DNA from: a virus
Taxonomy: Duplodnaviria; Heunggongvirae; Uroviricota; Caudoviricetes
Direction: 5' to 3' (one strand)
Length of the DNA stretch: 64,000 nucleotides
IMG/VR virus record: IMGVR_UViG_2529292913_000008
The notes under the pieces: generated by a model
Databases searched by the model: none
What the model was told of the DNA's origin: nothing
The model's input: the letters and a program-made list of their open reading frames with translations, nothing else
In this document: one piece after another, positions 12,416 to 13,186 of the stretch
How the letters are laid out: every line of letters begins with the position of its first letter
Numbering within the stretch: position 1 is the stretch's first letter
Made by a program: the position numbers and the translations under genes

Positions 12416-12494
12416 CCCAATTCGTGTTTTTCTTGCGGGTTCTTAATTAAACCCGCAAGAGACCGTGGGGTTCCAAATGGCTAATATACTCCCC

Positions 12495-12581
12495 TTACCC
12501 ATGCGCAACGATGCCGCCAAAAATGATAGAGAACAGCCAGAAATAGATCGCGGCCATAATGATTTTGAATGCCGTGTTCAT
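12495..12581 (-). CDS. small hydrophobic peptide (28 aa)
   Basis: ATG preceded by AGGAG at 7 nt; MNTAFKIIMAAIYFWLFSIIFGGIVAHG; sits between the hsdR stop and the plus-strand terminator, antisense to the hsdR 3' UTR. Confidence 0.35.
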   Translation of the reverse strand: MNTAFKIIMAAIYFWLFSIIFGGIVAHG

Positions 12582-12609
12582 ATTTTCAGCTCCTGTGATT
12601 GATTGGATA

Positions 12610-12640
12610 CATGCCGCGCCTTGCGGCATGTTTTTATTTT
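12610..12640 (+). terminator. rho-independent terminator (plus strand), likely for hsdR
   Basis: CATGCCGC-GCCTT-GCGGCATG followed by TTTTTATTTT. Confidence 0.6.
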
Positions 12641-12679
12641 CACTTTCTCTGTTTTAAAAATCAAGACTTATTAGAGCAA

Positions 12680-13186
12680 TTATTGTTGATGGAGAAGCGC
12701 GTTTTCATACTCCCTGACCATTAACGTAAGTACGCCGTGACTCCTGAAAACACGCGCCACTTCAATCTTATCTTCCAGCGCGAACGCAATTTTACTTAGA
12801 CCAATTTTCTTCAGGAGATCAATCTTTGCTGGACCGTCATTTCTGTCATCGGTGGCAGGACGCATAGATAGCAAAGGCTCAGCCCCATTTGTTACGTGCT
12901 TACGCAACCAGGCTCGTGTTTTATCCCTGGCTATCTCACAGCGCCCGGTTACAAACCAGAGGGTGTAAATGCCGGACAACTGGCGCACCATATCAATAAC
13001 TGGAGTGATGGGAGCATCAGTGTCACAGGCAAGGTTAAACTCGTTCCAGTGCTCTGTTAATGCACCTTTGCCAGGTGGTGGAAGTAAATGCAGCCTGTCT
13101 TCCGTTGCCTCTGATATCGTCCCATCAATATCTACTATGACGATGTACGGACGTTCCTGGTGTGCGTGTTTATTGAAAATACTCAA
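12680..13186 (-). CDS. HAD-superfamily phosphatase-like protein
   Basis: 168 aa with N-terminal VIVDIDGTIS (DxDGT) motif. Confidence 0.6.
   Translation of the reverse strand: MSIFNKHAHQERPYIVIVDIDGTISEATEDRLHLLPPPGKGALTEHWNEFNLACDTDAPITPVIDMVRQLSGIYTLWFVTGRCEIARDKTRAWLRKHVTNGAEPLLSMRPATDDRNDGPAKIDLLKKIGLSKIAFALEDKIEVARVFRSHGVLTLMVREYENALLHQQ

What the first reader, a model, noticed from the sequence alone, without database searches (positions are those of the whole stretch)
12430..12682. Small hydrophobic peptide ORF convergent with the hsdR 3' end
A 28-codon ORF with AGGAG 7 nt upstream lies on the minus strand inside the 200 bp between the hsdR stop and its terminator (12610-12640), preceded by an operator-like box at 12664-12680. 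The 10 bp inverted repeat at 12436-12463 has no U-run on either strand, so leftward transcripts would probably run antisense into hsdR. This resembles a type I toxin arrangement or an antisense control on restriction.
Basis: inference. Interest (0 to 1): 0.5.

Follow-up and report, generated by a model that had tools for sequence, protein, structure and literature searches.

The report
Orphaned phage P1 operon start beside hsdR
The small hydrophobic ORF, its "operator-like box" and the hairpin are the already-annotated, C1-repressor-controlled start of the phage P1 pmgT operon. It was left facing hsdR when a type I restriction cassette replaced the downstream genes, so this is a recombination joint and not a toxin-antitoxin module.

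Summary
A 28-codon ORF (12581-12498, minus strand) follows an AGGAG. A strong plus-strand terminator hairpin lies at 12609-12631, an inverted repeat without a U-run at 12431-12460, and a 17-bp box at 12664-12680.

The window is a P1-like phage-plasmid of E. coli. Positions 12491-12700 are 98% identical to the P1 stretch annotated in GenBank as C1 operator Op88/OpmgT plus the pmgT promoters. In P1 the small ORF stops 9 nt before the pmgT start codon. Here an inverted type IC hsdMSR cassette (5875-12490) replaces pmgV-U-T, which leaves the promoter, leader and small ORF convergent with hsdR.

Divergent P1-like elements keep the same operator, promoter, leader hairpin and Shine-Dalgarno sequence. 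These are followed by a 53-aa membrane ORF with a similar N-terminal helix, pN/pS of 0.32, and an ATGA overlap with the next gene. The ORF is therefore probably a real first cistron.

I found no antisense promoter, no Rfam or Pfam match, and no second copy. The type I toxin reading is not supported. C1-gated antisense transcription into hsdR is structurally possible but untested, and all hsd-type copies share one junction. This is ordinary and largely already annotated.

The parts
5875..12490 (+). Type IC (EcoR124/EcoDXXI family) hsdM-hsdS-hsdR cassette, which replaces P1 pmgV-pmgU-pmgT
   Evidence: BLASTN against P1: window 4981-5874 matches hot..upfM (82%), 12491-15700 matches the Op88 leader through pap and pmgS (98%), and nothing matches in between. 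Pfam finds N6_Mtase, Methylase_S and HSDR_N/EcoR124_C domains.
9299..12415 (+). hsdR. The start follows PGAP's 3117-nt call in matching records; the longest ORF starts at 9239.
12431..12460 (.). Perfect inverted repeat (11-nt arms) in the 3' tail of the cassette, with no U-run on either strand. It also travels with hsdR in IncF plasmids.
   Evidence: L007 matches 9900-12574.
12490..12491 (.). Right junction between the hsd cassette and the P1 backbone, 4 nt beyond the small ORF's stop codon
   Evidence: P1-type records begin matching at 12491. The sequence downstream of the ORF falls into two classes.
12495..12581 (-). Small ORF of 28 aa plus stop codon, predicted single-pass membrane peptide. 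It is the first cistron of the Op88-controlled operon.
12590..12594 (-). Shine-Dalgarno AGGAG. It is identical in all 85 aligned P1-like loci that carry the 28-aa ORF, and GGAG is kept in distant relatives.
12609..12641 (.). Hairpin 12609-12631 plus T-run 12632-12641. It is an intrinsic terminator for plus-strand (hsdR read-through) RNA. The same stem is the 5'-proximal stem-loop of the minus-strand mRNA.
   Evidence: A hairpin sits at the same place, with different sequence, in L092, L095, L096 and L097.
12636..12664 (-). Sigma-70 promoter P1pmgT: -35 TTGATT (12664-12659), 17-nt spacer, -10 GAAAAT (12641-12636). The transcription start is predicted near 12629.
   Evidence: GenBank AF234172 annotation, my own scan, and conservation of TTGATT-17-nAnAAT in four lineages.
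12664..12680 (-). P1 C1 repressor operator Op88 (OpmgT), ATTGCTCTAATAAGTCT
12680..13186 (-). pap (HAD-type polynucleotide 3'-phosphatase), the upstream neighbour. Its stop codon abuts the operator.

Best explanation
The region is the right-hand joint of a cassette swap in a P1-like phage-plasmid.

Positions 12491-12700 are the 5' end of the P1 'pmgT' early operon. This holds C1 operator Op88, a sigma-70 promoter abutting it, a 5' stem-loop, a Shine-Dalgarno sequence, and a 28-aa single-pass membrane peptide as the first cistron. In P1 the peptide's stop codon overlaps the ribosome-binding site of pmgT, 9 nt upstream of its ATG.

In this element pmgT-U-V were replaced by an oppositely oriented type IC hsdMSR cassette. 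The promoter, leader and small ORF are therefore orphaned and convergent with hsdR.

Inferred behaviour:
- In the lysogen, C1 bound at Op88 keeps the leftward promoter off.
- hsdR mRNA runs through the ORF region and stops at the 12609-12631 hairpin plus U-run.
- When C1 is inactivated (induction or fresh infection), the promoter fires and the peptide is made.
- RNA polymerase then continues, untranslated, antisense into the 3' end of hsdR until Rho stops it.

Shown: identity of the elements, the swap, conservation, and coding-type constraint. Inferred: transcription start, translation, membrane insertion, Rho termination, and any effect on hsdR.
For: - Host element: 100% match to an E. coli 100-kb plasmid carrying phd/doc, hot, dnaB (ban) and a baseplate gene.
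- P1 identity: 12491-15700 is 98% identical to P1. There the stretch is annotated as operator OpmgT (former Op88), promoters P1pmgT/P2pmgT, and homology to sequence downstream of hsdR of R124/3 and of the EcoDXXI hsd locus.
- Operon position: the P1 sequence reads TAA-GGGGGATGC-ATG(pmgT).
- Operator motif: strongly enriched in the window.
- Known variability: pmgT..humD is a known variable region of P1-like phage-plasmids (PMC9603915), and pmgT/U/V are non-essential (PMC10695390).
- ORF integrity: the ORF is intact at 28 aa in 85 of 88 P1-like loci. The other 3 have breakpoints or insertions in or next to the ORF, which truncate it or alter its C-terminus.
- Distant relatives: with pap at 72-80% identity, they keep the operator, the TTGATT-17-nAnAAT promoter, the hairpin and GGAG. 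A 53-aa ORF follows, with pN/pS of 0.32 in frame against 1.0 and 0.9 out of frame. It has an ATGA overlap with the next gene in 5 of 5 loci.
- Homology of the two peptides: the 28-mer aligns to that family ungapped from the start codon far better than composition-matched shuffles (p about 1e-4).
- Hydropathy: the best 19-residue window scores 2.37.
- No plus-strand promoter-like site in 12380-12610 and no minus-strand terminator in 12000-12600.
Against: - No transcript, ribosome-profiling or peptide data were available.
- BLAST does not detect the 28-aa/53-aa similarity. DNA homology to the distant relatives stops at the Shine-Dalgarno sequence (12589). The two peptides could therefore be analogous rather than homologous.
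- Within the P1 population the signal of purifying selection on the 28 codons is weak: 9 nonsynonymous and 6 synonymous variants (plus a TAA-to-TAG stop change), pN/pS about 0.4.
- Most amino-acid variants sit in hsd-type copies: 17 of 28 hsd-type loci are non-consensus, against 2 of 55 pmgT-type loci.
- One relative (L093) has the same leader running directly into a 156-aa gene with no small ORF.
- P1's reference annotation lists no CDS here.
Confidence: 0.75

Rival explanations
1. C1-gated antisense control of restriction. The Op88 promoter has been co-opted so that, on induction or infection, antisense transcription into hsdR lowers HsdR synthesis by polymerase collision or duplex RNA decay. 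This would be a lytic-phase restriction alleviation.
For: - The promoter is convergent with hsdR and has no intervening minus-strand terminator.
- Promoter, operator, hairpin and Shine-Dalgarno sequence are all kept intact in the 28 hsd-type loci.
- Antisense promoters are a documented control mode for some type II R-M systems, EcoRI and Eco29kI (PMC12707154).
Against: - All hsd-type loci share one junction, so this was one event with no convergent support.
- The same promoter and leader exist unchanged in P1 without hsd.
- IncF plasmids carry the same hsdR with the promoter and ORF start cut away by IS1, so the promoter is at least dispensable for carrying the cassette; hsd activity in those plasmids was not tested.
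- Type IC control is described as working through assembly, not transcription (PMC12707154).
- The antisense RNA would cover only the 3' end of a 3.1-kb gene, and untranslated RNA is prone to Rho termination (inference).
Confidence: 0.12
2. Type I toxin-antitoxin-like module. The peptide is a membrane toxin whose mRNA is neutralised by complementary plus-strand RNA, either a dedicated small RNA or the hsdR 3' UTR that ends at 12641.
For: - The peptide is small, very hydrophobic and has a strong Shine-Dalgarno sequence.
- hsdR read-through up to the 12609-12631 terminator would be fully complementary to the ORF mRNA.
Against: - No plus-strand promoter-like site lies upstream of the terminator.
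- No significant Rfam hit: the best is GcvB at 20 bits against a gathering score of 42, E = 0.08, covering only the terminator.
- No Pfam, NCBIfam or PHROG family matches the peptide.
- The ORF is single-copy.
- It is controlled by a protein repressor's operator.
- In P1 and relatives it is coupled to downstream cistrons, with no convergent gene at all in P1.
Confidence: 0.04
3. The ORF is not a functional protein. The 5' leader merely happens to be open for 28 codons, or the peptide sequence is irrelevant and only its translation matters, serving to load ribosomes for pmgT.
For: - It is unannotated in reference P1.
- Purifying selection within P1-like elements is weak or equivocal, and amino-acid variants are frequent in hsd-type copies.
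- L093 lacks it.
- No homologues exist outside P1-like elements.
Against: - The Shine-Dalgarno sequence is invariant and the frame is intact in 85 of 88 loci.
- 53 of 55 pmgT-type copies encode the identical peptide, even though 4 synonymous variants occur among them.
- The positional counterpart in distant relatives has pN/pS of 0.32 in frame only.
- Fixed-register similarity of the transmembrane helices gives p about 1e-4.
Confidence: 0.15
4. The real gene is the plus-strand 41-aa ORF (12477-12602), co-transcribed with hsdR upstream of the terminator.
For: - PGAP calls it in one record, L009.
- It is open in all 28 hsd-type loci.
Against: - It is hydrophilic, and it is codon-aligned antisense to a better-supported ORF.
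- It has 7 distinct full-length amino-acid variants plus one truncated copy among 28 loci.
- Its start is missing in P1-type elements, and its 3' end is removed by IS1 in IncF plasmids.
- Only a weak GGGG motif lies upstream.
Confidence: 0.02

Closest known systems
Phage P1 Op88/OpmgT operator-promoter region between pap and pmgT (GenBank AF234172 / NC_005856)
   Same: Window 12491-12700 is 98% identical. It has the same C1 operator, the same predicted promoters, the same hairpin, the same Shine-Dalgarno sequence and the same 28-codon ORF with one amino-acid difference, I20 in place of T20.
   Different: In P1 the leader continues into pmgT-pmgU-pmgV on the same strand. Here those genes are replaced by an inverted hsdMSR cassette, so the operon consists of the small ORF alone. 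The reference P1 annotation has no CDS for the ORF. RefSeq records call a 44-aa 'hypothetical protein' (WP_001312275.1) and phage SJ46 calls it a 'membrane protein'.
Sequences downstream of hsdR in the type IC systems EcoR124/3 and EcoDXXI
   Same: The P1 record itself notes 98% identity over 84 bp to R124/3 and 96% over 220 bp to the EcoDXXI locus. Present-day IncF plasmids carry hsdR plus window 12400-12574.
   Different: In the IncF plasmids IS1 cuts the region at 12574. This removes the ORF start, the hairpin, the promoter and the operator, so only a relic of the P1 backbone travels with the cassette.
Type I toxin-antitoxin systems (e.g. Ibs/Sib, Hok/Sok, TisB/IstR-1)
   Same: A short hydrophobic peptide ORF is overlapped by complementary RNA from the other strand.
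   Different: There is no dedicated antisense RNA gene or promoter, no family match, and only one copy. The ORF is repressed by a protein at an operator, and it is the first cistron of an operon in the parental arrangement.
Antisense (reverse) promoters controlling restriction genes in EcoRI and Eco29kI
   Same: A promoter is oriented against the restriction gene (PMC12707154).
   Different: The systems are of a different type (type II, not type I). Those promoters lie inside the R-M unit and act near the 5' end and ribosome-binding site. Here the promoter is foreign phage backbone, lies beyond the 3' end, and is repressed in the lysogen.
53-aa small membrane ORF at the same position in divergent P1-like elements (L092, L094-L097; UniRef A0A7M2QMD2, uncharacterised)
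   Same: It has the same operator, promoter, hairpin and GGAG context, the same start register, and a similar N-terminal helix (K6, A11, W15 invariant). It is the first cistron.
   Different: It carries a 28-residue hydrophilic tail that is absent here. It overlaps the next gene by ATGA. Neither BLAST nor DNA alignment links the two ORFs.

Membership tests
P1 C1-controlled operator-promoter (Op88/OpmgT) | A 17-bp asymmetric operator matching ATTGCTCTAATAAATTT | tested here: met
   12680-12664 (minus strand) matches 15 of 17 positions. The window has 10 matches against 0.42 expected.
P1 C1-controlled operator-promoter (Op88/OpmgT) | Orthology to the annotated P1 site, with overlap of a promoter | tested here: met
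   98% identity to AF234172, where the protein_bind feature OpmgT and promoters P1pmgT/P2pmgT are annotated. The -35 element abuts the operator.
P1 C1-controlled operator-promoter (Op88/OpmgT) | Binding and repression by C1 in this element | not testable with these tools
   I recall in vitro binding being reported for P1 Op88. The GenBank note cites M25414 and X98146, but those papers are not held in the library.
Type I toxin-antitoxin system | Small hydrophobic membrane peptide | tested here: met
   28 aa, GRAVY 1.49, best 19-residue hydropathy window 2.37. Toxicity was not tested.
Type I toxin-antitoxin system | Dedicated antisense or trans small-RNA antitoxin with its own promoter | tested here: not met
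   No plus-strand promoter-like site in 12380-12610, even at 8 of 12 matches. No Rfam family reaches significance.
Type I toxin-antitoxin system | Homology to a described toxin family | tested here: not met
   No Pfam, NCBIfam or PHROG hit. Homologues are found only in P1-like elements.
Type I toxin-antitoxin system | Self-contained module, not the first cistron of a longer operon | tested here: not met
   In P1 the stop codon lies 9 nt before the pmgT ATG. In relatives the ORF overlaps the next gene by ATGA.
Rho-independent terminator | G+C-rich stem followed by a U-run on the transcribed strand | tested here: met
   Met on the plus strand only: 12609-12631 followed by TTTTTATTTT. On the minus strand the tail is UAUCCAAUC.
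Type IC restriction-modification (EcoR124 family) | hsdM-hsdS-hsdR gene order, with HsdR carrying the EcoR124_C domain | tested here: met
   Pfam finds N6_Mtase, Methylase_S and HSDR_N + SWI2_SNF2 + T1R_D3 + EcoR124_C. PGAP names it 'EcoR124 family'.
Antisense-promoter control of a restriction gene | A promoter directing RNA complementary to the restriction-gene mRNA, with a measurable effect on its expression | tested here: inconclusive
   The geometry is present. The effect is not testable here, and the single shared junction gives no evolutionary support.

The most novel reading that the evidence does not exclude
In the roughly one quarter of matching E. coli records that carry the hsd-type arrangement, the orphaned Op88 promoter may have acquired a function. 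One possibility is that, as soon as C1 is inactivated, it drives antisense transcription into hsdR and so lowers restriction during lytic replication. Another is that the hsdR 3' UTR, which is fully complementary to the peptide mRNA, silences leaky expression of a membrane-active peptide. The second case would link maintenance of the R-M cassette to a toxin-like peptide.
Probability: 0.1. Interest if true: 0.55.

Novelty: already known. Interest (0 to 1): 0.15.

Why it matters
- **Correction of a tempting misreading.** A hydrophobic mini-ORF facing a restriction gene looks like a toxin module. Here it is the well-mapped C1-controlled start of a P1 early operon, exposed by a cassette swap in a known variable region.
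- **Annotation.** P1's reference record lacks a CDS for a small membrane peptide that is probably real. That peptide has a 53-aa counterpart in divergent P1-like elements. PGAP calls it inconsistently, as a 44-aa ORF on the minus strand or a 41-aa ORF on the plus strand.
- **Cassette history.** The relic of this ORF next to hsdR in IncF plasmids suggests that the EcoR124-type cassette once sat in a P1-like backbone.
- **Scope.** None of this changes how restriction-modification or toxin-antitoxin systems are understood.

Tried and rejected
- **Rfam, evalue mode, 11800-13400.** Only a sub-threshold GcvB hit on the terminator.
- **Family scans of the 28-, 44- and 53-aa peptides.** No Pfam, PHROG or NCBIfam hit.
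- **Large protein database search with the 44-aa form.** Only homologues at 89% identity or above, all carrying E. coli or no source names.
- **Same search with the 53-aa form.** Only five clusters.
- **GTDB genome scan with Pap.** Only two close Escherichia loci.
- **Plus-strand antisense promoter.** I scanned for one and found none.
- **44-aa start at 12629.** Rejected. It lies in the hairpin at or before the predicted transcription start and has no Shine-Dalgarno sequence.
- **Plus-strand 41-aa ORF.** Rejected.
- **First upstream variation table.** The ungapped per-site table was spoiled by indels. I replaced it with a MAFFT alignment.
- **Łobocka et al. 2004 (PMC523184).** Not held in the library.
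- **Literature on 'Op88'.** No relevant open-access paper.
- **P1vir RNA-seq paper.** It does not mention pmgT.
- **BLASTP/TBLASTN between the 28-aa and 53-aa peptides.** Nothing found. Only the fixed-register permutation test shows similarity.

Full report
**What is in the sequence**

On the minus strand an ATG at 12581 opens a 28-codon ORF, MNTAFKIIMAAIYFWLFSIIFGGIVAHG, with its stop codon at 12497-12495. AGGAG lies 8 nt upstream, at 12594-12590.

The hsdR ORF ends at 12415. It is an EcoR124-family type I R subunit, preceded by hsdM and hsdS.

A 10-pair, G+C-rich stem at 12609-12631 is followed on the plus strand by TTTTTATTTT (-17.9 kcal/mol, z = -5.2). A perfect 11-nt inverted repeat at 12431-12441/12450-12460 has no U-run after it on either strand.

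**Where the window comes from**

The 301 bases around the finding match 921 E. coli records, 899 of the 929 matching places being on plasmids. One 99,950-bp plasmid matches at 100%. That plasmid carries phd/doc, an S24 peptidase, the theta-subunit homologue hot, a replicative helicase and a baseplate gene, which together mark a P1-like phage-plasmid.

In the phage collection the matches are P1, P7, SJ46, RCS47 and relatives.

**What the region is in P1**

Window 12491-15700 is 98% identical to P1. The curated P1 record (AF234172) annotates the following features here:

- the monovalent C1 operator OpmgT, formerly Op88;
- two predicted sigma-70 promoters, P1pmgT and P2pmgT;
- homology to sequence downstream of hsdR of plasmid R124/3 (84 bp) and downstream of the EcoDXXI hsd locus (220 bp).

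I recalled the consensus from memory and then tested it. It occurs 10 times in the window at up to 3 mismatches, against 0.42 expected.

In P1 the small ORF ends TAA-GGGGGATGC-ATG, and that ATG is the annotated pmgT start. The ORF is therefore the unannotated first cistron, or leader ORF, of the pmgT-pmgU-pmgV operon.

**The cassette swap**

The comparison with P1 gives this map:

| Window | P1 equivalent | Identity |
|---|---|---|
| 2602-3204 | lxr | 97% |
| 4981-5874 | hot-upfO-upfN-upfM | 82% |
| 5875-12490 | replaces pmgV-pmgU-pmgT | no match |
| 12491 onward | Op88 leader, pap, pmgS | 98% |

The 6.6 kb in between is hsdM-hsdS-hsdR on the opposite strand. It replaces pmgV-pmgU-pmgT.

This stretch is one of eight known highly variable regions of P1-like phage-plasmids (PMC9603915). 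A CRISPRi screen scored pmgT, pmgU and pmgV as non-essential (PMC10695390).

Of 88 P1-like loci in which the leader was found, 55 continue into pmgT and 28 continue into the hsd tail. All 28 hsd-type loci share the same junction, apart from single-base variants in 3 of them. The swap therefore looks like a single event.

IncF-type plasmids carry the same hsdR plus window 12400-12574. An IS1 follows, which removes the ORF start, the hairpin, the promoter and the operator. A relic of P1 backbone thus travels with the EcoR124-type cassette.

**The promoter and the hairpin**

The motif TTGATT (12664-12659), 17 nt, GAAAAT (12641-12636) abuts the operator. The same architecture follows a C1-type operator in three more divergent lineages:

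| Lineage | Promoter |
|---|---|
| window / P1 | TTGATT-17-GAAAAT |
| L092 | TTGATT-17-CAGAAT |
| L094 | TTGTTT-17-AATAAT |
| L093 | TTGATT-17-GAAAAT |

The predicted transcription start, near 12629, puts the 12609-12631 stem at the very 5' end of the leftward mRNA. This mRNA folds with the Shine-Dalgarno sequence left mostly open (-20 kcal/mol, z = -3.8).

Relatives have a hairpin at the same place with unrelated or compensated sequence. For example, GGCGGTC/GACCGCC in L092 becomes GGCAG/CTGCC in L095 and GGGCAC/GTGCCC in L097. In those relatives the opposite strand has no T-run.

The "hsdR terminator" is therefore P1 backbone. It is the leader stem-loop plus the A-rich -10 and initial transcribed region, read from the other side. 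It should still terminate plus-strand RNA efficiently, and it would give hsdR a 3' UTR of about 225 nt that is complementary to the whole small ORF. That last point is inference.

**Is the small ORF a gene?**

Evidence for:

- The Shine-Dalgarno sequence is invariant and the 28-codon frame is intact in 85 of 88 loci. The other three have breakpoints or insertions in or next to the ORF, which truncate it or alter its C-terminus.
- 53 of 55 pmgT-type copies encode the identical peptide, although four synonymous variants occur among them.
- The peptide is strongly hydrophobic, with a best 19-residue window of 2.37.
- In divergent P1-like contigs (Pap 72-80% identical) a 53-aa ORF follows the same leader. 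Its N-terminal helix is similar, with K6, A11 and W15 invariant across both forms.
- That 53-aa ORF has pN/pS of 0.32 in frame, against 1.02 and 0.91 out of frame. It has an ATGA overlap with the next gene in all five loci.
- In fixed register from the start codon, the 28-mer scores better against this family than all but about 1 in 10,000 composition-matched shuffles.

Evidence against:

- BLAST sees no similarity between the two peptides, and DNA homology stops at the Shine-Dalgarno sequence.
- Within P1-like elements as a whole the constraint is modest: 9 nonsynonymous and 6 synonymous variants, pN/pS about 0.4.
- 17 of 28 hsd-type copies carry amino-acid changes. That fits relaxed constraint once the downstream cistrons were lost, but the counts are small and not corrected for phylogeny.
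- One relative (L093) has the leader but no small ORF.
- No Pfam, PHROG or NCBIfam family matches. Homologues are confined to P1-like elements.

I judge the ORF to be a real small membrane peptide and first cistron. Its function is unknown beyond probable translational coupling to the gene behind it.

**Type I toxin or antisense control?**

A type I system needs an RNA antitoxin, and the evidence is against one:

- No plus-strand promoter-like site lies between hsdR and the terminator, even at a relaxed threshold.
- Rfam gives only a sub-threshold hit on the terminator.
- The ORF is single-copy in the window.
- The ORF is governed by a repressor protein's operator.
- In P1 no convergent gene faces it at all.

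Antisense transcription into hsdR after C1 inactivation is a fair structural prediction. No minus-strand terminator was found in 12000-12600, and the RNA beyond 12495 would be untranslated and so probably stopped by Rho.

However, the arrangement stems from one recombination event. The promoter is unchanged from P1. The same hsd cassette is carried in IncF plasmids without the promoter. Published control of type IC enzymes works through subunit assembly (PMC12707154). I therefore treat antisense control as an untested side-effect of the swap.

**Verdict**

The operator and promoter inference is right. The toxin reading is not supported. The elements are already annotated in public records: Op88/OpmgT and its promoters in P1, and the ORF as a hypothetical or membrane protein in RefSeq and in SJ46. 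Interest is low.

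Noticed in passing
window 13259-14463 (minus strand): pmgS appears frameshifted. Two overlapping ORFs of 190 and 228 aa stand where P1 has one 420-aa gene. PGAP flags the same locus as 'frameshifted' in the plasmid NZ_CP122822 (L001), which matches this part of the window at over 99.9%.
   Followed up: partly
window about 3205-4533: An insertion sequence (402-aa DDE_Tnp_1 transposase, 3218-4426, minus strand) interrupts lxr relative to P1 and to the near-identical plasmid NZ_CP122822. That plasmid instead has IS1203 inside hsdR, which is intact in the window.
   Followed up: partly
window 164, 14756, 14805, 18429, 29058/29069, 32345, 48647, 50315: Nine further matches to the C1 operator consensus. 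They include an overlapping opposed pair at 29058-29085 and the pair at 14756/14805, which corresponds to P1 Op86a/b upstream of pmgR. This marks the window as carrying the full C1 regulon.
   Followed up: no
L007 (NZ_CP019028) 2500-5175; L008: In IncF-type plasmids the hsdR tail, carrying the truncated small ORF, is followed by IS1. Next comes a CBASS-like pair, a SMODS nucleotidyltransferase and an S-4TM effector. Together these form a small defence island.
   Followed up: no
L095 1333-1501; L093 3489-3592: The operator-promoter-hairpin-leader module persists where pap is absent (L095 goes from pmgS directly to the module). It also persists where no small ORF follows (L093 runs into a 156-aa MarR/Ren-like gene). 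In L093 the hairpin overlaps the promoter and has a T-run in the pap direction, so there it looks like the pap terminator.
   Followed up: partly
window 12477-12629, both strands: Automatic annotation is inconsistent across near-identical records. It gives a 44-aa minus-strand ORF (WP_001312275.1), a 28-aa form (P0008), a plus-strand 41-aa ORF (WP_258766984.1), or nothing.
   Followed up: yes
L092 3765-4079; L094 3767-4081: In divergent relatives the cistron coupled to the 53-aa ORF is a 104-aa winged-helix-like protein. It has weak PHROG matches to 'Ren-like exclusion protein' and MarR regulators, which suggests that the Op88-type operon often carries exclusion or regulatory cargo.
   Followed up: no
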